From an uncultured Actinomycetes bacterium (GTDB lineage Bacteria > Actinomycetota > UBA4738 > HRBIN12), in contig OY969934.1 in the NCBI GenBank assembly GCA_963704725.1, forward strand, positions 1,344,001 through 1,408,000: a stretch of DNA of 64,000 bases, read 5' to 3'. A model generated the notes under the pieces. That model was not told the DNA's origin. It saw nothing but the letters and a program-made list of their open reading frames with translations, and made no database searches. How positions within the stretch are numbered: position 1 is the first letter of the stretch; each line of letters starts with the position of its first letter. The translations under genes and the position numbers were made by a program. Shown here piece by piece: positions 707 to 64,000 of the stretch.

Positions 707-1903
707 TCACACGGTGCGCGCGAGCCACAGGCGCGGCTCGTCGAGCTCGGGCAGGGAGGGGAGGGCCTCCGGGCCCGACCACATCCGCGCCAGTGTCGCC
801 TCGTCCGCGAGCTCGACGACGCGCTCGCAGAACGCCTTGCCCAGCCGGTACTGCTCGCGCTTGACCTCGATGCCGAGGAGGCGCTCCAGGACGGGGTCGA
901 CGTGCTCCGTCTCGCGGTAGCGGCGCATGGCCTCATCGATCTTCGTGTACGAGGCGAGCATCCTGGCTCCGAGGGCGTGCATCACGTGGTCGCCATAGCC
1001 CTCCGCGGCACTCATGAAGGCCTGGATCCGTCCGAGCTTCAGTCGCTGCTCGTCGTCCAGGACCGCGCCGAACAGCCCCTCGTCCGACCCCAGCATCTCC
1101 TGCATCGCCTCGGGGTTGGAGGGATCGAGCGTCTCGAGACGCCGACGGAGTGACTCGACGTCGAGCTGCAGCGTCGACGTGTAGTCCTCGAGCAGATCCC
1201 GGAACCGGGCGAGCGCCCACGGCCGGGCGAACTCGAGCCGGTGTGTGACCTCGTGGATCGCGATCCACGTCCGGAACTCCTTCGGATCGAGGCTCCAGTC
1301 CCGCTCGAAGGCCGCGATGTTCGGAACGACGAAGAGCAGGGCGCCCGCGCCGCCCGGCCGCGGCATCGGGATGTCGTACTGCCCCAGCACCTGCTGGGCG
1401 AGCGCGCCGAGCACCGTCCCGACCTGAGCCCCGAGCAACAGCGGCGAGAGCTGCGCGAGGAGCTGGGTCATGCCCGGCGCCTGGGCGGCCTCGGGCACCG
1501 CGTCGCCCTGGGCCCGGCCCACCGCCTCGGCGATCTTGGCCGCGGCCGGCTCCAGGACCGCCCGTAGCCCCTCGAGGTTCTGCTGCACCCACTGCGCCCT
1601 TCGCACGGCCTCGACCTTCGGCAGGTCTCCGGGAGGCTCGAGCCCGGTGAACCCGGCCACCTGGATCTCGGCCAGTCGGACGGACTCCTCGAACCCGCGC
1701 TGGTCCTCGGCGCTCGGCGCCGGGTCGCCCGCGCCCCACGACGACGAGGCGATGCCGACCTGCCTGGCCAGCTCCCAGTTCACGGGCCCGCTCGAGGACA
1801 GCAGCACCCGCTGGATCTCGCGGAACAGCGGCACGTCGTTCCAGATGTCGCCGAGCGGCACGCCGAACGGATTCTCCTCGGGTCGCTGGGGCGTCTCGCT
1901 CAT
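707..1903 (-). CDS. Zinc-dependent metalloprotease / putative hydrolase (DUF2342, Zincin_2 family)
   Basis: GPVNWELARQ N-terminal motif, HEVTH zincin motif, EGYGDHVM, KREQY..GKAF, PSLPEL.EP..WL.R C-terminus. Confidence 0.88.
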   Translation of the reverse strand: MSETPQRPEENPFGVPLGDIWNDVPLFREIQRVLLSSSGPVNWELARQVGIASSSWGAGDPAPSAEDQRGFEESVRLAEIQVAGFTGLEPPGDLPKVEAVRRAQWVQQNLEGLRAVLEPAAAKIAEAVGRAQGDAVPEAAQAPGMTQLLAQLSPLLLGAQVGTVLGALAQQVLGQYDIPMPRPGGAGALLFVVPNIAAFERDWSLDPKEFRTWIAIHEVTHRLEFARPWALARFRDLLEDYTSTLQLDVESLRRRLETLDPSNPEAMQEMLGSDEGLFGAVLDDEQRLKLGRIQAFMSAAEGYGDHVMHALGARMLASYTKIDEAMRRYRETEHVDPVLERLLGIEVKREQYRLGKAFCERVVELADEATLARMWSGPEALPSLPELDEPRLWLARTV

Positions 1904-1981
1904 GCGGTCATCCTACGGCCGCACCCGCGCTGGGCCGTCCCGACTCGGAGGTCGTGTCGCTCGCGGCGGGGTCCTCCTACG

Positions 1982-2416
1982 ATGGGCCGCGTGCGAGATG
2001 AGCTGCTGGTCCGGGTGACGACCGAGGAGATCGGCGCCGGCGAGCCCGTCGCGTTCGTCGCGGATCCCTCGGCGGGAGGGACGTGCGTCTTCCTCGGCAC
2101 CGTCCGGGATCGCTCCGGCGCCGGCGAGGTCACCGGGATCACGTACGAGGCCTGGGAGGAGCTCGCCCTGCGGCGGCTCGACGACCTCGGCGAGGAGCTG
2201 TTCGCCACGTGGCCGCTCCGCCGCGTGGCCTTGATCCATCGCCATGGCGAGCTCGCGATCGGCGACGTGAGCGTGGCGATCGCCGTCAGCGCCGAGCACC
2301 GCGCGGAGGCGTTCGAGGCCTGCCGGCACGCGATCGAGCGGCTGAAGCAGGACGTGCCGATCTGGAAGCAGGAGCACCTGGTGTCCGGGGAATCGAGCTG
2401 GGTGATGGGCTCGTGA
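1982..2416 (+). CDS. moaE: Molybdopterin synthase catalytic subunit
   Basis: FLGTVRD, YEAW, HRHGELAIGD, SAEHRAEAF, LKQDVPIWKQE motifs. Confidence 0.93.
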   Translation: MGRVRDELLVRVTTEEIGAGEPVAFVADPSAGGTCVFLGTVRDRSGAGEVTGITYEAWEELALRRLDDLGEELFATWPLRRVALIHRHGELAIGDVSVAIAVSAEHRAEAFEACRHAIERLKQDVPIWKQEHLVSGESSWVMGS

Positions 2417-2440
2417 GCCGACCGCCGGCGGGGGGCTGAC

Positions 2441-3448
2441 ATGGGGCGCGACCTGGCGATCGACCTGGGCACCGCCAACACCCTCGTGTACCGGCAGGGC
2501 GAGGGCATCGTCTTCAACGAGCCGACCGTCGTCGCCATGAACGCCGCGACCGGCAAGGTGGAGGCGATGGGGGACGAGGCGTGGCAGATGATCGGCGGCC
2601 GGTCGGGCAACGTCGTCGCGGTCCGGCCGCTCCGTCACGGCGTGATGACCGAGTTCGACATCACCCAGCGGATGATCGGCGTGGTCCTTCGCCGGGTCGG
2701 TGTCCCCCGGTTCCCGAGGCCGCGCGCGCTGGCGTGCATCTCGAGCGAGAGCTCGGAGGTCGAACGGCGAGCCGTCGAGGAGGCCGTCCGCTTCGCAGGT
2801 GGCCGCGGGGTGGTGCTGGTGGAGGAGCCGCTCGCCGCGGCGATCGGCGCTGGGCTGCCGATCCACGAGCCGGTCGGCAACCTGATCGTCGACGTCGGCG
2901 GCGGCACGACCGAGATGGCCGTCGTCTCGATGGGGGGCGTCGTCTCCGGAACCTCGATCCGCGTCGGCGGCTTCGACCTCGACGCCGCGATCCAGGAGCA
3001 CGTTCGAGCGGTGTACGGCGTGGCGATCGGCGAGAAGGCCGCGGAGGAGATCAAGATCGCGATCGGCTCGGCGTTCCCGGTGCAGCGCGGCCGGGCCGCG
3101 GTGGTGACCGGGCGCGAGCTCGCCTCCGGCGCCCCGACCAAGGCCCGCGTGACCGAGGACGAGATCCGCACCGCGATCTCAGAGCCCGTGCAGCGGATCG
3201 TGGACGCCGCCCGTAAGACGCTCGCCGAGGCGCCGCCCGAGCTCACCCACGACGTGCTGGAGACCGGCATGTTCCTGACGGGCGGCGGCGGGCTGCTCCG
3301 AGGCCTCGACCTCCTGCTGTCGCAGGAGTGCGAGGTGCCGGTCCACGTCACCGACCGGCCGCTCGAGACGGTCGTGCTCGGCGCCGGGGCGATGCTCGAG
3401 CACCTCGACGACTACCGGAGCTCGTTCCAGCTCACACGCCGCCGATAG
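2441..3448 (+). CDS. mreB: Rod shape-determining protein MreB/Mbl (actin-like ATPase)
   Basis: DLAIDLGTANT, RPLRHGV, EEPLAAAIGAG, DVGGGTTE, LTGGGGLL. Confidence 0.92.
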   Translation: MGRDLAIDLGTANTLVYRQGEGIVFNEPTVVAMNAATGKVEAMGDEAWQMIGGRSGNVVAVRPLRHGVMTEFDITQRMIGVVLRRVGVPRFPRPRALACISSESSEVERRAVEEAVRFAGGRGVVLVEEPLAAAIGAGLPIHEPVGNLIVDVGGGTTEMAVVSMGGVVSGTSIRVGGFDLDAAIQEHVRAVYGVAIGEKAAEEIKIAIGSAFPVQRGRAAVVTGRELASGAPTKARVTEDEIRTAISEPVQRIVDAARKTLAEAPPELTHDVLETGMFLTGGGGLLRGLDLLLSQECEVPVHVTDRPLETVVLGAGAMLEHLDDYRSSFQLTRRR

Positions 3449-3773
3449 GGCCGGTCGGGAAGAAGTGCTCGATCGTCGAGTTCACGATGTGGCCGAGCTG
3501 GTAGATGCCGAACGCGAGCGCCACGGTCGCCACCACGATCAGGACCAGCAGGCCGACGAACCCCTGGATCCGGTCGCGCCAGGTCGGTCCGCGCACGAGG
3601 ACCCGCAGGTAGGCGTAGCCCGCCCCCGGGCCCTCGGGATCCCCGCCGTCCTCCTGCCCTCCGAGGCCCTCGAACCCCACGGCGGCGGGCCGGTCCTCGC
3701 TGGCCCGGAGCGTGGCGATGTAGACCCCGCCTCCGACGAGCAGCGACAGCGCGACGACGATCAGGTAGGCCAT
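3432..3773 (-). CDS. Small hypothetical membrane protein (two TM segments)
   Basis: 113 aa with two hydrophobic helices; fills the gap between mreB and the PDZ gene. Confidence 0.65.
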   Translation of the reverse strand: MAYLIVVALSLLVGGGVYIATLRASEDRPAAVGFEGLGGQEDGGDPEGPGAGYAYLRVLVRGPTWRDRIQGFVGLLVLIVVATVALAFGIYQLGHIVNSTIEHFFPTGPIGGV

Positions 3774-3841
3774 CGTGAGAACGACGGGAGCCTACCTCCA
3801 CCGGTTCCGTCGAGAGCGAAGCTCGCCCGTACTATCGCTCC

Positions 3842-55189: not shown

Positions 55190-57388
55190 ATGACGACGGA
55201 CCCACACGGCCGCGACGACGACGCCGCGCAGGGATCCGAGCTGTCGGGAGCCAAGCCCGTCGTCGTCACCGACCTCGCGAGCAAGACCCTCGCGGTGAAG
55301 GAAGGCGACACCTTCCTCTACTCCGATCTCGAGGGGAACCTCGACCACGGCGGCGACTACGGCCTCGGCCTGTACGCCAAGGACACGCGGTTCCTCTCGC
55401 ACTTCAAGATGACGATCAACGGCCGGCCCCCGGTCCTGCTGTCGTCGTCGTCCGAGCGCGGCTACATGTCGCACGTCGACCTGACCAACCCCGACCTGTA
55501 CGACGACGAGGTCGTCACCGTCCCGCAGCAGACTCTCAACCTCCGCCGCATCCGCGCCATCAACGGCCGGATGTTCGAGCGCGTCCGGGTGAAGAACTAC
55601 AACCCGTTCCCCGTCACGCTCGACCTCGAGTTCCATCTCGGCGCCGACTTCGCGGACATCTTCGAGGTGCGCGGCATGACCCGGGAGGCGGGGCCCGCGC
55701 CGCGGCCTCCGGTGGTGCGCGACGGCGTGATCGAGTTCGTGTACGACGGTCGCGACGACCTCCGCCGCACCACGCGGATCGAGTTCGCCGGGCTGCCGGA
55801 TCGCATCGACGTCCACGGGCTGCTCGCGACCGCGGTCTTCCGCATTCACCTCGGCCCCTACCAGACCAAGCTCGTCGGGCTGTCCATCGATCCCGTCATC
55901 GAGGACGGGAGCCCGTCGTCGACGGACTTCGACCACGCGGTCCACGAGCTCCGCCGGTCGTACGAGGAATGGGAGCGGGAGTCCACCGAGATCGTGACGG
56001 ACAACGAGCTCTTCAACGAGCTGCTGGCGCGGAGCCGGCGCGACCTCAGGGTCCTCCACACCGACACCGACGGCGGCTCGGTCCTGGCCGCGGGCATTCC
56101 CTGGTACGTCACCGTCTTCGGTCGCGACGCGCTGATCGCCTCCCATCAGCTCTTGCTGGTGAACACGCGCCCGGCCCGCGAGGCGCTCGAGCTCCTCGCC
56201 GCCAAGCAGGGCACGACGATCGACGACTGGCGCGACGAGCAGCCGGGCAAGATCCTGCACGAGATCCGCCATGGCGAGTTCGCGCGCGCCGGGATCATCC
56301 CGCACACGCCGTACTACGGGTCGGTGGATGCGACGCCGCTGTTCGTCCTCCTCTACGCGATGCACCTCCGGTGGACCGGCGACGTCTCGTTCGCCGAGAA
56401 GCTCCTGCCGGCGGCCGAGGCGGCGCTCGGATGGATCGACCAGTACGGCGACGTGGACGGCGACGGTTTCGTCGAGTACCAGACACGCTCGTCTCGCGGG
56501 ATCCGCAACCAGGGATGGAAGGACTCGCACGACTCGGTCGTTCACGCCGACGGTCGCCTGGCCGAGCCCCCCATCGCGCTGGCGGAGGTGCAGGGATACG
56601 TGTACCTGGCGAAGCTGCGGATGACCGACGTGTATCGGGCGCTCGGTCGCCATGCGGACGCGCGGCGCCTGGTCGATGAGGCCGCGGCGTTGAAGCTCCG
56701 GTACAACGAGGCGTTCTGGATGGAGGACGAGCACTACTTCGCGCAGGCGCTCGACGCCGACAAGCGGCAGGTGCGCACCGTGACGTCCAACCCGGGCCAC
56801 GGTCTCTACTGCGGGATCGTGGACGACGACAAGGCCGTGCCGCTCGCCCGGCGCTTGCTCTCGCCCGACATGTTCTCGGGCTGGGGCATCCGGACGATGA
56901 GCAAGGCGGCCGCGGCGTACAACCCGATGAGCTACCACAACGGCTCGGTCTGGCCGCACGACAACGCGCTCATCGCTGCCGGCTTGAAGCGCTACGGCTT
57001 CGCCCGGTCGACGAACCGGGTGGCCACGGCGATGTTCGACGCGGCCGTGCAGGCCGACTACATGCGCCTCCCCGAGCTCTTCTGCGGGTTCACGCGCCGC
57101 ACGCCGAACCGCCCGGTCAGCTACCCGGTCGCGTGCTCACCCCAGGCGTGGGCCGCCGGATCGCCGTACCTCATGCTGCAGGCGATCCTGGGGATCTCGG
57201 CCCGGGCCCACGAGAACCTCCTCACGGTGAACCTCCCGCACCTCCCCACGTGGCTCAACACCGTCGAGGTGCGCAACATCCGGGTCGGCGAGAGCCGCAT
57301 CAGCATCGTGTTCCGGCGCGAGGGGGAGATCACGTCGTTCTCGCTGCTGGCGCGCGAGGGCGACGTGCGTGTGGTGATGGAGGAGTAG
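55190..57388 (+). CDS. Amylo-alpha-1,6-glucosidase / glycogen-debranching family glycoside hydrolase ((alpha/alpha)6 barrel)
   Basis: AAGIPWY.TVFGRD, EQPGKILHE, YYGSVDATPL, NQGWKDS, YHNGSVWPHDN, RLPELFCG, YPVACSPQAWAAG. Confidence 0.9.
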   Translation: MTTDPHGRDDDAAQGSELSGAKPVVVTDLASKTLAVKEGDTFLYSDLEGNLDHGGDYGLGLYAKDTRFLSHFKMTINGRPPVLLSSSSERGYMSHVDLTNPDLYDDEVVTVPQQTLNLRRIRAINGRMFERVRVKNYNPFPVTLDLEFHLGADFADIFEVRGMTREAGPAPRPPVVRDGVIEFVYDGRDDLRRTTRIEFAGLPDRIDVHGLLATAVFRIHLGPYQTKLVGLSIDPVIEDGSPSSTDFDHAVHELRRSYEEWERESTEIVTDNELFNELLARSRRDLRVLHTDTDGGSVLAAGIPWYVTVFGRDALIASHQLLLVNTRPAREALELLAAKQGTTIDDWRDEQPGKILHEIRHGEFARAGIIPHTPYYGSVDATPLFVLLYAMHLRWTGDVSFAEKLLPAAEAALGWIDQYGDVDGDGFVEYQTRSSRGIRNQGWKDSHDSVVHADGRLAEPPIALAEVQGYVYLAKLRMTDVYRALGRHADARRLVDEAAALKLRYNEAFWMEDEHYFAQALDADKRQVRTVTSNPGHGLYCGIVDDDKAVPLARRLLSPDMFSGWGIRTMSKAAAAYNPMSYHNGSVWPHDNALIAAGLKRYGFARSTNRVATAMFDAAVQADYMRLPELFCGFTRRTPNRPVSYPVACSPQAWAAGSPYLMLQAILGISARAHENLLTVNLPHLPTWLNTVEVRNIRVGESRISIVFRREGEITSFSLLAREGDVRVVMEE

Positions 57389-57397
57389 GCGGGGCCC

Positions 57398-58156
57398 TCA
57401 GGGCCGGACGATCACGGGCGTGCCGAGCCGAAGGAGCGGCCGGAGCCTGGCCAGCGCCGCCTCCGAGACCCGGAGACACCCGGCGCTGGCCGACGTGCCG
57501 ATCGAGGAGGCGTCGTTGGTCCCGTGGATCGCGAGCTGGTCGCCGCCGGTCCACCCGGACGGCAGCCGGGGCTGGATCCCCGAGATGCCGAACGCGAACG
57601 TCCCGAGCGATCCGCCGCCCGGGAACGCGATGCGGTCGGTGACGAAATACCGGCCGGCGGGGGTGGGGGAGGCCGCCGCGCCGGTCGCCGCGGGCGTACG
57701 CAGGATGACCCGGCCCCCGCGTCGCACCGCGAGCCGGTGCGCGGACAGGTCCGCCACCACGGTGACCCGCGTCCCGGATCGCTCGAGCCCGCGAAGGCGG
57801 ATCCACCCGGAGACGTGCGTTGCGAGGTACGGCACGTCGACCAGCCCGAACCGCCCGTTCGCGCTCACCCGGCGGACCCACGCTACCGTCTGCGTGCCGT
57901 AGAAGCGGGAGCCGTCGGGCATCGTGCCGACGACCCGCCCGCCGTCCGGGCGGGCGGTGACGGGCAACGAGCGATCGATCTCGACGAGGAGGGCCGCCGG
58001 AACACGGCTCGCCGGAACGTGAGCCGGGGCGAGCGGCGGCACCGGTGGGTCGGCCAGGATCGCGGCCCGCGCCTCGGTGCCGCGGGTACCTGTGGCGATC
58101 GTCACCAGGGTGACGATCGCCACGATGGCGAGCCCCCGCTTCCGCGCCGGTCCCAT
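57398..58156 (-). CDS. L,D-transpeptidase (YkuD domain), exported
   Basis: Signal/TM; TG...PTP.GRY, IHGTN......S.SAGCLRV. Confidence 0.88.
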   Translation of the reverse strand: MGPARKRGLAIVAIVTLVTIATGTRGTEARAAILADPPVPPLAPAHVPASRVPAALLVEIDRSLPVTARPDGGRVVGTMPDGSRFYGTQTVAWVRRVSANGRFGLVDVPYLATHVSGWIRLRGLERSGTRVTVVADLSAHRLAVRRGGRVILRTPAATGAAASPTPAGRYFVTDRIAFPGGGSLGTFAFGISGIQPRLPSGWTGGDQLAIHGTNDASSIGTSASAGCLRVSEAALARLRPLLRLGTPVIVRP

Positions 58157-58277
58157 GCACGCGATATCGGCGCCTCGGGACGCAGGGCTGACCGGGTGGC
58201 GGCGCGTCTAGCCGAAGGTCCTCACCCGCGATCCCGGAAGGCCTCGACCCATCGGCCGACCCGGGCCGGGACCGAGG

Positions 58278-59459
58278 TCAGCGAAGGCAGGCGCCGGTGC
58301 CGACCGGGTCGGTCTCGCCGACGGCGTCGTCCAGGCGATCCCGCACGTCGCGAGCCGCTATCGCGTAGCCGACGTCCTCGTTCGTCGACGAGGCCGCGAA
58401 GACGACGCCGGCGACCGTGCCGTCCGCCAGCATGAACGGCCCTCCGGAGTTCCCCGGGCGGACCTCCGTCTGCAGCTCGATCACCAGACGGTCGACGTTC
58501 CCGGTCCCGTAGATGTCGTGCCCGAGGGCGGAGTACGAACGGAGCACGGCCGCGGGCGTGCCCGACAGTGGCCCGCCCCCGGGGTAGCCGAGGACCGCCC
58601 CGACCTCGCCCCGCTCGACGTCCCCCGAGGTGAGCACCAGGATGCGACCGATCGGCTGGCCCACGTGCACGACGGCCAGGTCCAGGTCGGGGTCGAAGAG
58701 CACGGTCGTCCCGTGCTGGGTCCCCCCGGCCGAGGTCTGCACGATCGGATCGTCCACGCCGGCCAGGACGTGCGCGTTCGTGACGACGTACCCGTCGGCG
58801 GCGACGAAGCCGGATCCCTCCTGCACGTGGCCGCAGGCCTCCCCCCAGATCTCCAGCGTGCTCCGGGCCGCGGCGTTGTAGGCGGCCTGCTCCTGCCGGT
58901 CGGTGGGCGGCGGGACGGGGGCGGCCGGCAGCGGCGGGATCCCCGAGAAGACGTCGGGGAAGCCGAACCGGTTGAAGAAGCGCCGGACCTGCCCGAGCAG
59001 CGAGGGCGGCTCGGGGAGCGCGTCGTCGAGCGTGCGCACGATCGCGGAGCCCCGGACCTCGCTGGCCAAGCCGGGGAAGGGGCCGTTGACCAGGTTCAGC
59101 GCGACGAACCAGATCGCCAGCAGCGAGGCCATCACCGCGACGACCGATCCCCCCACGGCGTCGGCGGGCGCGAACCGCGTGGCGCGCGCCCGCTCCCTGA
59201 TGCGATGGCCGAGGAACCATCCCGCCGTGTCGCCGACGGCCGCCAGGAGCAGGAGGGTCAGAGCGGTCAGGCCCGCCTGGGCGCCCGGCGAATCGGCCAG
59301 CCCCGCCACCCGCGGCGCGAGGAGCGCGCCGACGACGAGTCCCACGAGCAGACCGCCGAACGCGCACGCCTGCAGCATCACGCCGCGGCGGTAGCCGGAC
59401 ACGCCGGCGAGCGAGATCAGCAGGAACAGGGCCAGATCGAGCAGGTTCACGACCCGCAC
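58278..59459 (-). CDS. MarP-family membrane serine protease (CvpA-like TM + trypsin domain)
   Basis: N-terminal TMs NLLD..., EGSGF, VTNAHV, DLAV, PGNSGGP; terminal disulfide Cys. Confidence 0.9.
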   Translation of the reverse strand: MRVVNLLDLALFLLISLAGVSGYRRGVMLQACAFGGLLVGLVVGALLAPRVAGLADSPGAQAGLTALTLLLLAAVGDTAGWFLGHRIRERARATRFAPADAVGGSVVAVMASLLAIWFVALNLVNGPFPGLASEVRGSAIVRTLDDALPEPPSLLGQVRRFFNRFGFPDVFSGIPPLPAAPVPPPTDRQEQAAYNAAARSTLEIWGEACGHVQEGSGFVAADGYVVTNAHVLAGVDDPIVQTSAGGTQHGTTVLFDPDLDLAVVHVGQPIGRILVLTSGDVERGEVGAVLGYPGGGPLSGTPAAVLRSYSALGHDIYGTGNVDRLVIELQTEVRPGNSGGPFMLADGTVAGVVFAASSTNEDVGYAIAARDVRDRLDDAVGETDPVGTGACLR

Positions 59460-59530
59460 ATGGTCCCAAAGCGGCGACCCGTCGGCCGTGCCGGCTCCGG
59501 CGGCAGCCCTCCACTAGACTGGAAGCGGCC

Positions 59531-60334
59531 GTGGTCACGATCGCCCACATCTCGGACCCTCACGTCGGTTCCCCCTACTTCGTCCCCAACCTGATGCACC
59601 GCGTGATCGTCGAGCTGAACGAGCTGCAGCCCGACGTCGTGATCTGCAGCGGAGACCTGACCAACGAGGGGTATCGGCAGGAGTTCAAGAACTGGGTCGC
59701 GTACGCCCAGCGGATCCAGGCCCCCATGTTCACGGTCCCCGGCAACCACGACGCTCGCAACGTGGGCTACCTCCACTTCGAGGAGCTGATCGGCGCCCGC
59801 GCCTGGAGCACCGACGTCCAGGGTGTGCGCATCGTCGGCGTCGACTCCAGCGAGCCCGACATCAACGAGGGGCAGGTGGGCCGCGAGCGCTACGACTGGA
59901 TCCGGGAGCGCTTCGACGTCCCGGCGGACCTCAAGGTGTTCGTGCTGCACCACCACCTCCTGCCGATCCCGGGCACGGGCCGCGAGCGCAGCACGGTGAT
60001 GGACGCCGGCGATCTGCTGGAGGAGCTGATCTCGGCCGGGGTGAACATCGTGCTCTCCGGTCACAAGCACGTTCCGTACGTGTGGCGGCTCGAGGACCTG
60101 TACGTCGCGAACGCTGGGACCGTCGCCTCGCTCCGCGTCCGCGGCTACACCAAGCCGTGCTACAACGTGCTCGAGTTCGAGGGGGACCTGGTCAAGATCA
60201 CGCGGAAGTACCCGTTCGGCGCGGGGAGCGTGATCGCGCATTTCTCGCTGTCCACCGGCGAGCAGTTCTTCCGAGAGCTCGAGCCGCCGGTGCAGCCGCG
60301 GACCACGGTGTCGCAGGGGCATCAGGGGGAATAA
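59531..60334 (+). CDS. Calcineurin-like metallophosphoesterase (CpdA/Icc-like)
   Basis: ISDPH, SGDLT, PGNHD, LHHH, GHKH; TAGACT -10-like box upstream. Confidence 0.9.
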   Translation: MVTIAHISDPHVGSPYFVPNLMHRVIVELNELQPDVVICSGDLTNEGYRQEFKNWVAYAQRIQAPMFTVPGNHDARNVGYLHFEELIGARAWSTDVQGVRIVGVDSSEPDINEGQVGRERYDWIRERFDVPADLKVFVLHHHLLPIPGTGRERSTVMDAGDLLEELISAGVNIVLSGHKHVPYVWRLEDLYVANAGTVASLRVRGYTKPCYNVLEFEGDLVKITRKYPFGAGSVIAHFSLSTGEQFFRELEPPVQPRTTVSQGHQGE

Positions 60335-60407
60335 CCCGCCGGACGATCGAGCCACCGCACCGGATCGATAGGTCCACCCACCCAGGAATCGGCACCCAGG
60401 AGGCGTC

Positions 60408-61745
60408 GTGAGGGTCCTCGTCCTCGTGGACGGCGAGCACTATCCACCCGTCACCCGGTGGGGGATCGAGGTCGCCCGAGGACGGGGCCTCGACCCCGTC
60501 GCCGCGCTGCTGGTCGGCGGCGTCGAGAAGCTGCGGCCGGGGGAGGCGCTCGACCTGGGAACCCCGGTCCGGATCGCGGGCGAGGACGTCGCCGCCTCCC
60601 TCGCCGCGGCAATCGAGGACCTGGCGCCGGAGGGTCTGCAGGGCGTGCTCGATCTGTCCGACGAGCCCGTCCTGGGCTATCGGGAGCGGATGGAGCTGGC
60701 CGCCGTGACCCTGATCCGGGGGTTGCCGTACGTCGGCGCCGACTTCCGGCTCGACCCACCGATCGATGGCCCGCCGCTCGAGGTGCCGGCGCTCGCGGTG
60801 ATCGGGACCGGCAAGCGAACGGGCAAGACCGCCATCGCCGGCGAGGTCGCCCGGACCGCGGTGGCGATGGGAGCCCGTCCCGTCGTCGTGGCCATGGGCC
60901 GGGGCGGTCCGCTCGAGCCGCAGATCGCGCAGGCCGGCAGTGTCACGCTCGATCGGTTGCTCGAGCTGGTCCGCAGCGGAGAGCACGCGGCGTCGGACTA
61001 CCTCGAGGACGCGGTGACGACCGGCGTGACGACCGTCGGGGCCCGGCGTGCCGGCGGAGGGCTGGCCGGCCGGCCGGCCGCCACCAACCTCCGGGAGGCC
61101 GCCGAGCTCGCGACGGGTCTCGGCGCCGGGATCGTGATCCTGGAGGGGAGCGGCTCCGCGATCCCCCCGGTCCCCTGGGACGCCGGCGTGCTGGTTGCGC
61201 CCGCCTCGCTCCCCGTCGAGTACCTGGGGGGATACCTGGGACCGTTCCGACTCTTGCTATCCAACCTGGTCGTTGTTACCATGGGTGCCAGCCCAGCCGG
61301 GCTCGAGAACCTCCCTGTCTTCAGATCCCTCGTCCAGCGACTGCATGGTGATGCCCGGCTCATCGTGACGGATCTCCATCCACAGCCGCTCGGCGATGTC
61401 GAGGGCAAGGACGTGTTCTTCACCACGACGGCGCCGGGGCCGGTCGCGAAGAGGCAGGCCGGGTCCCTGGAACGGAACCACGGCTGCCGTGTGGTGGGGT
61501 GGAGCGCTCGTCTTGCCGACCGGGCGGGGCTGGCGCGAGACCTGGACGGCGCCGGAGGGTACGAGGTGCTGCTCACCGAGTTGAAGGCGGCCGCGGTGGA
61601 CGTGGCCTGCGAGCGGGCCCTCGCGCGGGGCGCGGAGGTCGTGTTCGTCGACAACCGGCCCGTCCCGATGGAGGGCGAACCCGATCTCGGGTCCGCGCTG
61701 AGGGAGACGATCGAGCTGGCCGTGGAGCGGAAAGCCGACAGATGA
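60408..61745 (+). CDS. cpgS: Cyclic 2,3-diphosphoglycerate synthetase (cDPGS)
   Basis: DGEHYPPV, GGVEKL, DLSDEPV, GADF, GTGKRTGKTA, AMGRGGP, HAASDYLED, RRAGGGLAG, EGSGSAIPP, TELKAAAVD, FVDN; AGGAGG RBS. Confidence 0.9.
   Translation: MRVLVLVDGEHYPPVTRWGIEVARGRGLDPVAALLVGGVEKLRPGEALDLGTPVRIAGEDVAASLAAAIEDLAPEGLQGVLDLSDEPVLGYRERMELAAVTLIRGLPYVGADFRLDPPIDGPPLEVPALAVIGTGKRTGKTAIAGEVARTAVAMGARPVVVAMGRGGPLEPQIAQAGSVTLDRLLELVRSGEHAASDYLEDAVTTGVTTVGARRAGGGLAGRPAATNLREAAELATGLGAGIVILEGSGSAIPPVPWDAGVLVAPASLPVEYLGGYLGPFRLLLSNLVVVTMGASPAGLENLPVFRSLVQRLHGDARLIVTDLHPQPLGDVEGKDVFFTTTAPGPVAKRQAGSLERNHGCRVVGWSARLADRAGLARDLDGAGGYEVLLTELKAAAVDVACERALARGAEVVFVDNRPVPMEGEPDLGSALRETIELAVERKADR
61254..61282 (+). 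promoter_or_regulatory. Putative internal sigma-70 promoter inside cpgS
   Basis: TTGCTA-N17-TACCAT with extended -10 TGn, in a locally AT-enriched patch. Confidence 0.55.
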
Positions 61746-62755
61746 CGCCAGACACCGGTACCCCTTCCCGATCCGGGACGGGGCCCGACACCGGTTCCGA
61801 GAGCAGGAACGAGCCTCGGAGCCCGCGCATCCTCATCCACGACGGTCCGTCCGGACTGCCGTACTCGAAGGGTCTGCGAGCGTCCGAGGTCATGGTGACC
61901 GGTCTGTCGCCATATCGCGCCTACCAGGTCGCCGAGGCCGTGGAGCAGCGGCTGCTCGAGCGGGGCGCGGCCTCCGCGACGAGCGAGGAGCTGGGTGACC
62001 TGACCCTCGAGGTCATCGAGGAGCTGGCCGGCGAGCGGTACGCCGACAACTACCGGCGGTGGCGGGAGGTGGAGGCGCTCGACGTCCCGATGGTCGTCCT
62101 GATCGGCGGGGCGACGGGGGTCGGGAAGTCGACCATCGCCACCCAGCTCGCGACGCGACTGGGGATCGTCCGGGTCGTCGCCACCGACGCGGTTCGAGAG
62201 GTCCTGCGCGCCGTCTTCTCCCGGGAGCTCATGCCGACCCTGCACACGTCGTCGTTCGAGGCGGGGGAGGTGCTGCGGGAGCCGCCATCGCGCGACGCGG
62301 TGGTGGTGGGGTTCCGCGAGCAGACGGCCGCCGTCGCGGTCGGCGTGAACGCGCTCCTGGATCGCGCAGCGATGGAGGGGACGAGCCTCATCATCGAGGG
62401 CGCGCATATCGTCCCGGGGTTCCTCGAGGCGAGCGCCTGGGAAGACCGCGTGCTGGCGGTGCCGGTGATCCTCACCGTGGACGAGGAGGATGCGCATCGC
62501 AGTCACTTCGCGGCTCGCGCGGCCGATCACGCGGGCCGATCCGCCTCCCGGTACCTCGAGCAGTTCGACCACATCCGGCGGGTGCAGCGCTACATCAAGA
62601 ACCAGGCGCTCTCGCACGGCGTGCCGGTCATCTCCAACTTCAACTTCGACCGCACCCTGGCGGCCGTCATCGACCTCGTGATGGAGCGCGCGACCGGGCG
62701 GATCGCGGGTCACCGCCCGCGCGTCGGATCCGCGACCGAAGGAGGGACCCCGTGA
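61742..62755 (+). CDS. pgk2: 2-phosphoglycerate kinase (archaeal type, ATP-cone + P-loop)
   Basis: LPYSKG ATP-cone, YRRWR, LIGGATGVGKSTIA, TDAVRE, LHTSSF, IIEGAHIVPG, HRSHF; ATGA overlap with cpgS. Confidence 0.88.
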   Translation: MTPDTGTPSRSGTGPDTGSESRNEPRSPRILIHDGPSGLPYSKGLRASEVMVTGLSPYRAYQVAEAVEQRLLERGAASATSEELGDLTLEVIEELAGERYADNYRRWREVEALDVPMVVLIGGATGVGKSTIATQLATRLGIVRVVATDAVREVLRAVFSRELMPTLHTSSFEAGEVLREPPSRDAVVVGFREQTAAVAVGVNALLDRAAMEGTSLIIEGAHIVPGFLEASAWEDRVLAVPVILTVDEEDAHRSHFAARAADHAGRSASRYLEQFDHIRRVQRYIKNQALSHGVPVISNFNFDRTLAAVIDLVMERATGRIAGHRPRVGSATEGGTP

Positions 62756-63414
62756 AGCTGTTCCTGGACACCGCGAACATCGAGGAGATCCGAGAGATCA
62801 ACCGATGGGGCGTGCTGCGTGGCGTGACCACGAACCCGTCGCTGATCTTCAAGGAGAAGCTGGACCCGGAGCGGGTATGGAAGGAGATCCTGGCCGAGGT
62901 CGACGGCGACGTGTCGCTCGAGACCACCGAGCCCGAGCCGGGCCCGATGTACGAGGAGGGGCTCCGGCTGGCCCAGATGGCCCCGAACGCCGTCGTGAAG
63001 GTCCCCATGACGGAGGCCGGGCTCGAGGCCGGCAAGCGCCTCGTCGACGACGGGATCCGGATCAACGTGACGCTCGTGTTCTCCCCGGCCCAGGCGATCC
63101 TGGTGGCCGAGGTGGGCGCGTACATCGTGTCCCCGTTCCTGGGGCGACTGGACGACGCCGCGGCAGACGGGATGGACGTCCTTCGGAAGATCTGCGAGAT
63201 CTACGAGGTTCAGGGGTATGAGACCAACGTGCTGGCCGCGTCCCTGCGGCATCCCATGCACGTCGTCGAATCCGCGCTCGCCGGGGCCGACATCGCCACG
63301 ATGCCGTATGCGGTCTTCAAGCAACTGGTCAAGCACCCGCTCACCGACGTTGGAAACGAGAAGTTCCTCCGGGACTGGACGTCCCTCAAGGAGGAGCTGG
63401 AGAAGGGAGCCTGA
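62752..63414 (+). CDS. tal: Transaldolase / fructose-6-phosphate aldolase (short type)
   Basis: LFLDTAN, GVTTNPSL, VVKVPMT, NVTLVFS, SPFLGRLDD, AASLRHP, HPLTD.G..F..DW; GTGA overlap. Confidence 0.92.
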   Translation: MKLFLDTANIEEIREINRWGVLRGVTTNPSLIFKEKLDPERVWKEILAEVDGDVSLETTEPEPGPMYEEGLRLAQMAPNAVVKVPMTEAGLEAGKRLVDDGIRINVTLVFSPAQAILVAEVGAYIVSPFLGRLDDAAADGMDVLRKICEIYEVQGYETNVLAASLRHPMHVVESALAGADIATMPYAVFKQLVKHPLTDVGNEKFLRDWTSLKEELEKGA

Positions 63415-64000
63415 GTGGCAACCATGGAGAAGAGCGCCCTCGAGGGCAAGGTCGCGTCCGAGCTGCACCAGATCGCGTCCGACCTCGGGATCGAGGGGCA
63501 CAAGGGGCTCAAGAAGGCCGATCTGATCGATCGCATCCTGACGCACGCCAACGGCGCGCGGTCGGGCGGCGTCGCGACGGCGCCGGCCCCGGCCCCCGCG
63601 CCGGAGTTGACGGCCGGCCCGGCCGAGGAACGTCGGGCCGCCGGCAACGGCGAGGCACGCATCGACATGCGCCCCGCCCCAGGCAACGGAGAAGGCAGCT
63701 CGCAGGAGCGTCGGGACGACCGTCCGCCGCGCGACCGGTTCGAGCCCCGCGGGGGCGATCGGACGAACGTGCGCGAGGGTGGTCCTGTTCGCGACCGTGA
63801 GGGGGGTCCTCCCCGCGGCCGCGAGGGCGGGCAGCAGCGCGAGGGCGGTCCTCCCCGCGACCGCGAGGGCGGGCAGCAGCGCGAGGGCGGTCCTGCCCGC
63901 GACCGCGACGCGAGCCGTCGCCGGCCGTCCCGGGAGGAGCGCCGCCGACAGCGGGAAGAGCGCCGGGTTCGCGAGTTCGAGGTCCGCGAGGAGGAGCTCG
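63415..64000 (+). CDS. rho: Transcription termination factor Rho, N-terminal part (truncated by window)
   Basis: MEKSALEGKVASELHQIASDLGIEGHKGLKKADLIDRIL (Rho N-terminal helical domain) followed by an R/E/G-rich insertion; synteny with the thr genes; start GTG 63415 or ATG 63424. Confidence 0.85.
   Translation, partial: MATMEKSALEGKVASELHQIASDLGIEGHKGLKKADLIDRILTHANGARSGGVATAPAPAPAPELTAGPAEERRAAGNGEARIDMRPAPGNGEGSSQERRDDRPPRDRFEPRGGDRTNVREGGPVRDREGGPPRGREGGQQREGGPPRDREGGQQREGGPARDRDASRRRPSREERRRQREERRVREFEVREEEL
63805..63908 (+). repeat. 42-bp in-frame tandem repeat (~2.5 copies) in the Rho N-terminal insertion
   Basis: ggtcctccccgcg(g/a)ccgcgagggcgggcagcagcgcgagggc twice plus a partial copy. 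Confidence 0.8.

What the first reader, a model, noticed from the sequence alone, without database searches (positions are those of the whole stretch)
60408..63423. Archaeal-type cyclic 2,3-diphosphoglycerate pathway in an operon with tal and rho in an actinobacterium
Seen: cpgS and pgk2 with full motif sets, overlaps ATGA (61742-61745) and GTGA (62752-62755), and rho starting right after tal; codon usage is mostly host-like. Established: 2-PG kinase plus cDPG synthetase make cDPG, a thermoprotective solute characterised in methanogens such as Methanothermus fervidus; bacterial homologs are annotated (e.g. Rubrobacter), but I know of no demonstrated bacterial cDPG. Inference: this bacterium makes cDPG, and coupling to central carbon metabolism and Rho suggests a core role (phosphate/energy store, stress protectant or signal).
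Basis: partly seen in the sequence, partly recalled or inferred. Interest (0 to 1): 0.85.

Follow-up and report, generated by a model that had tools for sequence, protein, structure and literature searches.

The report
Bacterial cyclic-diphosphoglycerate gene cluster

Summary
cpgS (60408-61745), a 2-phosphoglycerate-kinase homologue (61742-62755), a short transaldolase (62752-63414) and rho (from 63415) lie head to tail, with the ATGA and GTGA overlaps as stated.

CpgS aligns over its full length to the crystallised Methanothermus fervidus enzyme (E 7e-93). It keeps 10 of 11 mapped ligand residues.

The interpretation needs correcting in three ways:
- **A missed gene.** A metallophosphoesterase gene (59531-60334) leads the cluster. 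Across 401 sampled genomes of the phylum, 224 have both it and cpgS, 6 have cpgS only and 2 have the esterase only. A phosphoesterase also sits beside cpgS-pgk2 in Thermococcus-like, Asgard-like and Cloacimonadota-like contigs.
- **Not an archaeal oddity.** cpgS was found in 230 of 401 sampled genomes. The family tree is mostly bacterial, with the archaeal enzymes as one nested branch.
- **tal-rho is a backbone.** The pair persists in a relative that lacks the cDPG genes, so the linkage says little about function.

Best reading: the cluster synthesises cDPG from 2-phosphoglycerate, and the esterase is the turnover enzyme. The product is untested.

This scan has reported the same operon at least seven times on other genomes.

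The parts
59531..60334 (+). Metallophosphoesterase (MPE, 267 aa), first gene of the conserved unit and candidate cDPG or 2,3-DPG hydrolase.
   Evidence: Pfam Metallophos, 75.5 bits, E 1e-20. Full metal-ligand motif set: D9-x-H11, G41-D42, G71-N-H-D74, H140-H141, G177-H-x-H180. The closest solved proteins are only Rv0805 and GpdQ, at E about 1e-9. It is adjacent to cpgS in 79 of 80 close loci and 16 of 20 diverse loci. An orthologue at E<=1e-50 was found in 226 of 401 phylum genomes, 224 of which also have cpgS.
60408..61745 (+). cpgS, cyclic 2,3-diphosphoglycerate synthetase homologue (445 aa).
   Evidence: phmmer against PDB: 8ORU/8ORK E 6.9e-93 and 9SXB E 5.1e-92, both full length. P-loop G133-T-G-K-R-T-G-K-T141. 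Residues matching Mf E45, K46, K145, R146, K149, T150, D208, T353, E404 and K406 are kept; Mf E305 is A294 here.
61742..62755 (+). pgk2, 2-phosphoglycerate kinase family protein (337 aa). The ATG overlaps the cpgS stop (ATGA).
   Evidence: NF003259, 295.9 bits, E 3.6e-88, profile positions 6-294 of 306, below the cut-off of 343. Walker A G123-ATGVGK-S130. Weak ATP-cone at residues 54-110, 19.5 bits. It is adjacent to cpgS in 79 of 80 and 19 of 20 loci.
62752..63414 (+). tal, short-type transaldolase (220 aa). The GTG overlaps the pgk2 stop (GTGA).
   Evidence: TIGR00875, 255.3 bits, above the cut-off of 245.95. PDB: T. maritima transaldolase 1VPX 235 bits, against E. coli FSA 1L6W 101 bits. 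It is adjacent in 78 of 80 and 16 of 20 loci.
63415..64000 (+). 5' part of rho. The whole gene is 567 aa and ends about 1.1 kb beyond the window. It begins one base after the tal stop.
   Evidence: Rho_N in the window. The full ORF at L103 416-2119 has Rho_N, Rho_RNA_bind and the ATPase domain. The rho core was found just downstream on the same strand in 68 of 80 close loci and 20 of 20 diverse loci.
61742..61745 (+). ATGA start/stop overlap between cpgS and pgk2.
   Evidence: The same kind of 4-base overlap, in frame with the downstream gene, occurs in 66 of 98 related loci.
62741..62755 (+). GGAGGG ribosome-binding site and the GTGA start/stop overlap between pgk2 and tal.
   Evidence: The 4-base overlap at this junction occurs in 78 of 94 related loci.

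Best explanation
The five genes MPE-cpgS-pgk2-tal-rho form one co-directional, translationally coupled block that is old in this phylum.

Proposed mechanism: Pgk2 phosphorylates 2-phosphoglycerate to 2,3-diphosphoglycerate using ATP. The 2-phosphoglycerate is supplied by enolase and by the genome's archaeal-type cofactor-independent mutase ApgM. CpgS then uses a second ATP to close the two phosphates into the cyclic pyrophosphate cDPG, by the chemistry described for the M. fervidus enzyme. The metallophosphoesterase most likely opens or dephosphorylates the product (cDPG to 2,3-DPG, or 2,3-DPG to a monophosphoglycerate). The unit would then encode both synthesis and turnover of a pool that can buffer phosphate, carbon and energy, or act as a stress solute, rather than serve as a heat protectant.

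What is shown: gene identities, conservation of the ligand residues, gene coupling, co-occurrence and synteny.

What is inferred: the substrates of Pgk2 and the MPE, the existence and size of a cDPG pool, and co-transcription.
For: - **CpgS homology.** Full-length match to the crystallised enzyme.
- **Ligand residues.** Ten of the 11 residues that De Rose 2023 (section 8) names for 2,3-DPG, Mg and ATP binding, and that I could map, are kept in the window. They are invariant or nearly so in 235 homologues.
- **Similarity in context.** The window scores 315 bits to 8ORK. A Thermococcus-type CpgS, whose near relative is itself deposited as cDPG synthetase (9SXB), scores 345 bits.
- **Pgk2.** Its best family is 2PGK. 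Its score of 295.9 bits is the same as cpgS-adjacent kinases in Asgard-like contigs (315 and 334 bits) and a Cloacimonadota-like contig (294.5 bits).
- **Co-occurrence.** Of 230 cpgS-positive genomes, 219 also have both pgk2 and the MPE orthologue. Of 171 cpgS-negative genomes, 2 have the MPE and 1 has pgk2 (compared by hand).
- **Gene order.** MPE-cpgS-pgk2 order holds in 79 of 80 close loci. pgk2 is adjacent in 19 and the MPE in 16 of 20 loci from 20 other families.
- **Independent linkage.** An MPE also follows cpgS-pgk2, in a different order, in 3 of 3 Thermococcus-like, 1 of 2 Asgard-like and 5 of 6 Cloacimonadota-like metagenome loci.
- **Coupling.** 4-base overlaps and short gaps at all junctions.
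- **No need for 2,3-DPG as a cofactor.** The genome has ApgM (340 bits, above the cut-off of 320) but no cofactor-dependent mutase above its cut-off.
- **Precedent.** Roberts 2005 (section 24) describes cDPG as a carbon and phosphate store with a hydrolase in Methanothermobacter.
Against: - No measurement of cDPG exists for any bacterium.
- Pgk2 is below NCBIfam's equivalog cut-off (295.9 against 343). The family includes kinases with other substrates, such as mevalonate-3-phosphate 5-kinase, NF008996.
- The adenosine-contact residue Mf E305 is A294 here and varies (A/S/G/R) in 79 close relatives, although it is E in the other groups.
- In the only lineage where cDPG is proven, cpgS stands alone: 0 of 29 Methanobacteriales-like loci have pgk2 or an MPE within the fetched flanks. 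So the MPE is not shown to be needed there.
- The hydrolase reported in Methanothermobacter is membrane-bound. I did not run a membrane-segment prediction on this MPE.
- The co-occurrence counts come from related genomes and are not independent events.
Confidence: 0.6

Rival explanations
1. The pair does make 2,3-DPG and cDPG, but only as a low-level regulatory metabolite or a pathway intermediate. The phosphoesterase would then be a processing step towards another product, not a recycling enzyme. No large solute or storage pool would exist.
For: Nothing here bears on pool size. The genes sit in a housekeeping block with rho, prfA and rpiB rather than with stress genes. The Thermococcus-like clusters carry a CBS-domain ORF between pgk2 and the MPE. 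From general knowledge, CBS domains usually sense adenosyl ligands.
Against: In the archaea where it has been measured, cDPG is a bulk solute (Roberts 2005). Spending two ATP per molecule and keeping a dedicated esterase fits a turnover pool equally well. No downstream tailoring enzyme is conserved in the 100 actinobacterial loci.
Confidence: 0.15
2. The bacterial enzymes act on a different substrate. The annotation as cDPG synthetase and 2PG kinase is carried over from archaea by homology alone.
For: Pgk2 is below the curated cut-off, and the 2PGK superfamily includes kinases with other substrates. The window's CpgS lies in a bacterial clade separate from the clade holding the characterised enzyme. 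The position matching Mf E305 has changed.
Against: All residues reported to touch 2,3-DPG (Mf E45, K145, R146, K406) and Mg (T150, D208) are kept in the window. They are invariant in the 79 close loci, the 20 diverse actinobacterial loci and the 29 methanogen-like loci. The kinase and synthetase stay paired across bacteria and archaea.
Confidence: 0.12
3. The cluster is a recent horizontal import from thermophilic archaea and marks heat adaptation of this organism.
For: Historically the pathway is known only from hyperthermophilic methanogens.
Against: - G+C of the cluster equals that of the flanks.
- cpgS was found in 230 of 401 genomes, 150 of 249 genera, with the same gene order in 20 families at 40-52% identity.
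- The window's protein is not in the archaeal branch.
- No reverse gyrase above the cut-off in the genome: best hit 249 bits against a cut-off of 472, covering the topoisomerase part only.
Confidence: 0.03

Closest known systems
cDPG biosynthesis of Methanothermus fervidus: 2-phosphoglycerate kinase plus cDPG synthetase (PDB 8ORK/8ORU; De Rose et al. 2023, PMC10690619)
   Same: Same two enzyme families. CpgS aligns end to end. It has the same P-loop, Mg ligands, 2,3-DPG-binding residues and the partner-subunit E-K pair.
   Different: - Bacterial host with no hyperthermophile marker.
- The genes are fused into an operon with a phosphoesterase, tal and rho. In 29 Methanobacteriales-like loci, one of which scores 768 bits to 8ORK, cpgS stands alone.
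- The residue matching Mf E305 is not conserved.
- The window's protein lies in a different clade of the tree.
cpgS-pgk2-CBS-MPE clusters of Thermococcus-like, Asgard-like and Cloacimonadota-like metagenome contigs (loci L135, L138, L140, L107, L158 and others; the Thermococcus type is close to PDB 9SXB)
   Same: The same three families (synthetase, kinase, metallophosphoesterase) lie side by side on one strand.
   Different: The order is reversed, with the esterase last. In the three esterases scanned (L135, L107, L158) the protein is about 500 aa, and Pfam reports two metallophosphoesterase stretches in L135 and L107 but one in L158. A CBS-domain ORF is inserted in L135. There is no tal or rho. 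The taxon labels are inferred from 50-80% identity to named cluster members, not from the contigs themselves.
Class III cyclic-nucleotide phosphodiesterase Rv0805 and glycerophosphodiesterase GpdQ (closest solved relatives of the MPE)
   Same: Binuclear metallophosphoesterase fold motifs are all present.
   Different: Only E about 1e-9 to either. The score on the cAMP-phosphodiesterase model NF008359 is 41.8 bits against a cut-off of 225. It is a separate subfamily whose substrate is unknown.
MPE-cpgS-pgk2 operons reported earlier by this scan in other Actinomycetota (Thermoleophilia, Gaiellaceae)
   Same: The same three-gene unit and the same reading.
   Different: In this genome's order the unit is joined directly to tal-rho. 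I show here that rho follows the unit in 20 of 20 families examined, and that the esterase linkage extends to archaeal-type loci.

Membership tests
Cyclic 2,3-diphosphoglycerate synthetase (CpgS; Pfam PF27272 CpgS_N; PDB 8ORK) | Full-length homology to the characterised enzyme, including the unique N-terminal domain. | tested here: met
   E 6.9e-93, residues 2-440 aligned to 5-453 of 8ORU. Close homologues carry precomputed PF27272. The local Pfam and NCBIfam copies hold no model that matches it.
Cyclic 2,3-diphosphoglycerate synthetase (CpgS; Pfam PF27272 CpgS_N; PDB 8ORK) | Walker A loop with K145, R146, K149, T150 and the Mg ligand D208. | tested here: met
   K136, R137, K140, T141 and D197 in the window. 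These are invariant in 79 close, 20 diverse and 29 methanogen-like homologues.
Cyclic 2,3-diphosphoglycerate synthetase (CpgS; Pfam PF27272 CpgS_N; PDB 8ORK) | Substrate contacts from the partner subunit (E45, K46) and K406/E404. | tested here: met
   E40, K41, E391 and K393 are present.
Cyclic 2,3-diphosphoglycerate synthetase (CpgS; Pfam PF27272 CpgS_N; PDB 8ORK) | Adenosine and ribose contacts E305, P335, T353. | tested here: inconclusive
   T353 maps to T341 and is kept. E305 maps to A294 and is not kept; it is variable in this order but E elsewhere. P335 could not be mapped, because position 335 of the aligned chain is not a proline.
Cyclic 2,3-diphosphoglycerate synthetase (CpgS; Pfam PF27272 CpgS_N; PDB 8ORK) | Converts 2,3-DPG and ATP to cDPG. 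| not testable with these tools
   Needs an enzyme assay.
2-phosphoglycerate kinase (NCBIfam NF003259 / PRK04220) | Score above the curated equivalog cut-off. | tested here: not met
   295.9 bits against 343. The cut-off is passed by a Thermococcus-like cpgS-adjacent kinase (411 bits), but not by Asgard-like ones (315 and 334 bits) or a Cloacimonadota-like one (294.5 bits).
2-phosphoglycerate kinase (NCBIfam NF003259 / PRK04220) | Best-matching family over nearly the whole profile, with a P-loop kinase core and an N-terminal ATP-cone. | tested here: met
   Profile positions 6-294 of 306, and it is the best of 11 families. Walker A at residues 123-130. The ATP-cone is only weak, at 19.5 bits against a cut-off of 25.8.
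2-phosphoglycerate kinase (NCBIfam NF003259 / PRK04220) | Genomic pairing with cpgS. | tested here: met
   225 of 230 cpgS-positive genomes have it, and 1 of 171 cpgS-negative genomes does. It is adjacent in 98 of 100 actinobacterial loci.
2-phosphoglycerate kinase (NCBIfam NF003259 / PRK04220) | Phosphorylates 2-PG to 2,3-DPG. | not testable with these tools
   Needs an enzyme assay. No solved structure of any family member was found.
Calcineurin-like metallophosphoesterase superfamily | Pfam domain above the cut-off and the complete metal-ligand motifs. | tested here: met
   75.5 bits against a cut-off of 21.5. Motifs DxH, GD, GNHD, HH and GHxH are all present.
Class III cNMP phosphodiesterase (CpdA / Rv0805) | Score above the family cut-off. 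| tested here: not met
   NF008359 scores 41.8 bits against a cut-off of 225. Rv0805 matches at E 1.5e-9 only.
Short-type transaldolase (TIGR00875 group) | Score above the cut-off, and closer to transaldolases than to fructose-6-phosphate aldolase. | tested here: met
   255.3 bits against 245.95. 1VPX, 1WX0 and 3R8R score 217-235 bits, against 87-103 bits for the FSA entries.

The most novel reading that the evidence does not exclude
The conserved metallophosphoesterase is the cDPG hydrolase, whose gene I found identified in no paper (search). On this reading cDPG is not a thermophile speciality. It would be a widespread, dynamically turned-over phosphate, carbon and energy buffer in most deep-branching Actinomycetota (and in Bipolaricaulota, Cloacimonadota, Thermococcales and Asgard archaea), expressed constitutively because its genes are read through into the essential rho gene.
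Probability: 0.3. Interest if true: 0.75.

Novelty: new variant of a known kind. Interest (0 to 1): 0.5.

Why it matters
The literature treats cDPG as exclusive to hyperthermophilic methanogens and as a heat protectant (De Rose 2023 abstract). Intact, residue-conserved synthesis genes in more than half of the sampled genomes of a large bacterial phylum make a different picture directly testable. So does their fixed partnership with a phosphoesterase across both domains. On that picture, cDPG would be a common bacterial metabolite with its own breakdown enzyme. A positive result would have three consequences:
- It would change how this solute's role is understood, as a phosphate and energy store rather than a thermoprotectant.
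- It would name the missing hydrolase.
- It would offer mesophilic enzymes for producing a compound of commercial interest (Stracke et al. 2025, passages read).

Tried and rejected
- **Expression evidence.** The look-up of sequencing runs listed no RNA holder. It listed only four DNA runs, each holding 0.05-0.07 of the words. I did not lay reads, so nothing can be said about expression or habitat.
- **Regulatory signals.** No sigma-70-like promoter, intrinsic terminator or Rfam family was found in 59300-64000.
- **Naming the tree.** Only 11 of 30 cluster representatives carried a taxon name.
- **Locating the M. fervidus cluster.** I could not find it among the 50% representatives. A Methanobacteriales-like metagenome locus, L109 (768 bits to 8ORK), served as the anchor instead. 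The tree is unrooted, so the direction of any transfer between domains is not decided.
- **A wasted literature search.** One search matched 'cpgS' to 'CpGs'.
- **Rival rejected: 2PGK only supplies the 2,3-DPG cofactor of a cofactor-dependent mutase.** The genome has no such mutase above the cut-off and uses ApgM.
- **Rival rejected: recent archaeal import**.
- **Not run.** No structure prediction, fold search or complex prediction, because the sequence match to solved structures was already decisive and I claim no binding between the proteins.
- **Supplements closed.** Tables S2/S3 of Abby 2020 (cDPGS distribution in ammonia-oxidising archaea) and the supplementary figures of De Rose 2023 were not seen.

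Full report
**What is there.**
Five genes lie head to tail on the + strand:
- a metallophosphoesterase (MPE), 59531-60334
- cpgS, 60408-61745
- a 2-phosphoglycerate-kinase homologue (pgk2), 61742-62755
- a short transaldolase (tal), 62752-63414
- rho, from 63415

ATGA is at 61742-61745. GTGA is at 62752-62755 behind a GGAGGG site. The rho GTG comes one base after the tal stop, behind AAGGGAG. The gap between the MPE and cpgS is 73 bases.

Rho runs beyond the window. The whole gene is 567 aa with Rho_N, RNA-binding and ATPase domains. It is followed by DUF1385, a DivIVA-like gene, prfA, a Sua5/YciO-family gene, a low-molecular-weight phosphatase and rpiB, which is a housekeeping stretch. G+C in the cluster (0.66-0.75) matches the flanks. 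No promoter-like site, terminator-like site or Rfam match was found in 59300-64000.

**Identity of CpgS.**
The protein has no hit in the local Pfam or NCBIfam copies. It does match the two M. fervidus cDPG synthetase structures at E 6.9e-93 (315 bits, residues 2-440 of 445), and a third deposited cDPG synthetase, 9SXB, at E 5.1e-92.

De Rose et al. 2023 (I read section 8) name these residues:
- K145, R146, K149 and K406 as charge shields
- E45 and K46 from the partner subunit
- T150 and D208 as Mg ligands
- E305, P335, T353 and E404 at the nucleotide

Reading the printed alignment, these map to K136, R137, K140, K393, E40, K41, T141, D197, A294, (not mappable), T341 and E391. So 10 of the 11 mapped residues are kept.

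I aligned 235 homologues: 79 close loci, 20 loci from other families of the phylum, 58 cluster representatives and 78 metagenome loci. The ten kept positions are invariant or nearly so in this alignment.

The exception is the position of Mf E305. It varies (A/S/G/R) in the window's close relatives. It is E in 20 of 20 diverse actinobacterial homologues and 28 of 29 methanogen-like homologues.

For scale, the window scores 315 bits to 8ORK. A Thermococcus-type CpgS scores 345 bits, and two unnamed representatives score 372 and 374 bits.

**Identity of Pgk2, Tal and the MPE.**
Pgk2's best family is NF003259 (2-phosphoglycerate kinase) over positions 6-294 of 306. Its 295.9 bits fall below the curated cut-off of 343.

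That cut-off is narrow. A Thermococcus-like kinase next to cpgS scores 411 bits. Asgard-like ones score 315 and 334 bits, and a Cloacimonadota-like one scores 294.5 bits. I therefore file Pgk2 in the 2PGK family in the wide sense, with its substrate inferred. No solved structure exists for the family.

Tal passes TIGR00875. It is far closer to solved short transaldolases (217-235 bits) than to fructose-6-phosphate aldolases (87-103 bits). The genome has a second TAL_FSA-family gene elsewhere.

The MPE has every metal-ligand motif. It resembles Rv0805 and GpdQ only at E about 1e-9.

**Distribution.**
Homologues number at least 7897 clusters at 90% identity. The best 120 include many named 'cyclic 2,3-diphosphoglycerate synthetase' from Actinomycetota MAGs. 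At 50% identity there are 232 representatives at E<=1e-30.

The 80 closest genome loci are all uncultured Actinomycetota, at 63-79% identity. Among 401 genomes drawn evenly from the phylum:
- cpgS was found in 230 (150 of 249 genera)
- the MPE orthologue (E<=1e-50) in 226
- pgk2 (E<=1e-40) in 226

By my hand comparison of the three listings:
- 224 genomes have both cpgS and the MPE (6 cpgS only, 2 MPE only)
- 225 have both cpgS and pgk2 (5 cpgS only, 1 pgk2 only)
- 219 have all three

Whole families lack all three: 0 of 21, 0 of 19, 0 of 13 and 0 of 10. These genomes are relatives, so the counts are not independent events.

The tallies include the genomes flagged as unpublished: G088, G332, G239, G048, G226, G001, G148, G120, G318, G018, G174, G082, G268 and G391. 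All 14 are cpgS-positive, so without them the figure is 216 of 387. No locus from them was fetched.

**Gene order.**

| Gene found beside cpgS | 80 close loci | 20 loci from 20 other families (cpgS 40-52% identical) |
|---|---|---|
| MPE | 79 | 16 |
| pgk2 | 79 | 19 |
| tal | 78 | 16 |
| rho core | 68 | 20 |

Most misses in the close loci are at contig ends. In-frame 4-base stop/start overlaps occur at cpgS-pgk2 in 66 of 98 loci and at pgk2-tal in 78 of 94 loci. The distance from tal to rho is at most 150 bases in 62 of 62 loci.

One family (f16) has an unlinked, more divergent pgk2 and 2-4 MPE copies.

**Is the link to tal and rho meaningful?**
I examined three cpgS-negative relatives:
- One has hom-thrC-thrB-rho.
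- One has thrB, then an ORF with no Pfam match, then rho.
- One (G012) has a short tal whose end overlaps the rho start, preceded by an unrelated TIM-barrel gene.

So tal-rho is a backbone pair that survives without the cDPG genes. The linkage implies probable co-transcription with an essential gene, which is an inference. It does not by itself show a 'core role'. Only three genomes were examined.

**Archaeal comparison.**
I scanned metagenome contigs with an alignment of the archaeal-type representatives and obtained 80 loci. Their contexts were as follows:
- **Methanobacteriales-like.** Twenty-nine low-G+C loci form one clade (support 100). One of them, L109, scores 768 bits to the M. fervidus structure. 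In all 29, cpgS stands alone within the fetched flanks.
- **Thermococcus-like.** Three loci are 62-66% identical to a cluster named Thermococcus paralvinellae, which scores 611 bits to 9SXB. In all three, cpgS-pgk2 is followed by an MPE ORF of about 500 aa. I scanned one of them, L135, in which Pfam reports two metallophosphoesterase stretches and a CBS-domain ORF lies between pgk2 and the MPE.
- **Asgard-like.** One locus has cpgS-pgk2-MPE and the other has cpgS-pgk2 only.
- **Cloacimonadota-like.** Five of six loci have cpgS-pgk2-MPE.

The esterase therefore travels with the synthesis genes in two gene orders and in both domains. This is the strongest argument that it belongs to the pathway. 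The labels rest on similarity to named cluster members, not on the contigs themselves.

**Tree.**
In a FastTree of 157 CpgS sequences, all archaeal rows fall in one 41-row group (support 80). These rows are Asgard-like, Thermococcus-like and the 29 methanogen-like loci. The group is nested in a 92-row clade (support 100) that also holds Bipolaricaulota, Cloacimonadota and small-genome actinobacterial families. The window's protein is in a separate 24-row clade (support 99), together with other actinobacterial families and Acidimicrobiia.

Before building this tree I dropped nine gappy or two-piece representatives and any metagenome row outside 400-520 aa. The tree is midpoint-rooted for drawing only. 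It shows that 'archaeal-type' is a historical label. It does not show who gave the gene to whom.

**Mechanism and rivals.**
The best reading is 2-PG to 2,3-DPG (Pgk2), then to cDPG (CpgS), with the MPE as the turnover enzyme. The genome supplies 2-PG through ApgM (340 bits, above the cut-off of 320). It has no cofactor-dependent mutase above its cut-off, so 2,3-DPG is not needed as a cofactor. No reverse gyrase passes its cut-off, so a hyperthermophilic role is unlikely.

Roberts 2005 (section 24) records cDPG as a carbon and phosphate store in Methanothermobacter, with a K+- and Pi-inhibited, membrane-bound hydrolase. The same section records a reversible synthetase in M. fervidus.

The rivals, with their evidence, are set out in their own sections: a low-level signal or intermediate, a different substrate, and a recent archaeal import.

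**Novelty.**
The gene families and their bacterial annotation are known. This scan has reported the same MPE-cpgS-pgk2 operon at least seven times on other genomes. Those notes are leads only, and I re-tested their content here.

I found no paper on bacterial cDPG or on the hydrolase gene in the library. Only open-access papers and bioRxiv preprints are searched.

This window adds three things:
- the direct fusion of the unit to tal-rho
- the finding that rho follows the unit in every family examined
- the extension of the esterase linkage to archaeal-type loci

Noticed in passing
window 55190-57388 (+): A 732-aa protein with GDE_N_bis, MGH1-like glycoside-hydrolase and GDE_C domains recurs near the cluster. 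It appears in 34 of 80 close loci and 10 of 20 diverse loci. In some it lies directly upstream of the MPE (L090, L093), and in L091 directly upstream of cpgS where the MPE is missing. It may be a hydrolase for a glycerate-containing solute that feeds glycerate into the pathway. This is speculative.
   Followed up: partly
window 61287-61289 (CpgS residue A294): The residue matching M. fervidus E305, an adenosine/ribose contact, is A here and varies (A/S/G/R) in 79 close relatives. It is E in nearly all other homologues. This could mean altered nucleotide binding in this order.
   Followed up: partly
L135 9234-11185; also L138, L140, L107: Thermococcus-like and Asgard-like contigs carry cpgS-pgk2 followed by an MPE ORF of about 500 aa. 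Two of these esterases, L135 and L107, were scanned, and Pfam reports two metallophosphoesterase stretches in each. L135 also has a 144-aa CBS-domain ORF between pgk2 and the MPE. This is a possible regulated breakdown module.
   Followed up: partly
window 63550-64000 (rho N-terminal region): Rho has a long arginine-, glycine- and glutamate-rich insertion between Rho_N and the RNA-binding domain, with repeated REGG...PPRD-like units (translation; domains). Its low complexity is why the N-terminal query found rho in only 53 of 80 loci.
   Followed up: no
genome G000:C1:2159434-2160555 (outside the window): The only phosphoglycerate mutase found above a cut-off is the archaeal-type ApgM. No cofactor-dependent or bacterial cofactor-independent mutase was detected.
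   Followed up: yes
L189 (G012) 1013-3813: In a cpgS-negative relative, a short transaldolase still overlaps the start of rho. So tal-rho is an independent conserved pair in part of the phylum.
   Followed up: partly
family f16 genomes (e.g. L088 = G056): This family keeps MPE-cpgS next to rho. Its pgk2 is unlinked and more divergent (E 1e-44 to 1e-53), and it has 2-4 copies of the MPE.
   Followed up: no
window 57398-59459 (-): A MarP-family membrane serine protease (349 bits, above the cut-off of 250) and a YkuD L,D-transpeptidase lie divergently upstream of the MPE. MarP is nearby in 58 of 80 close loci.
   Followed up: no
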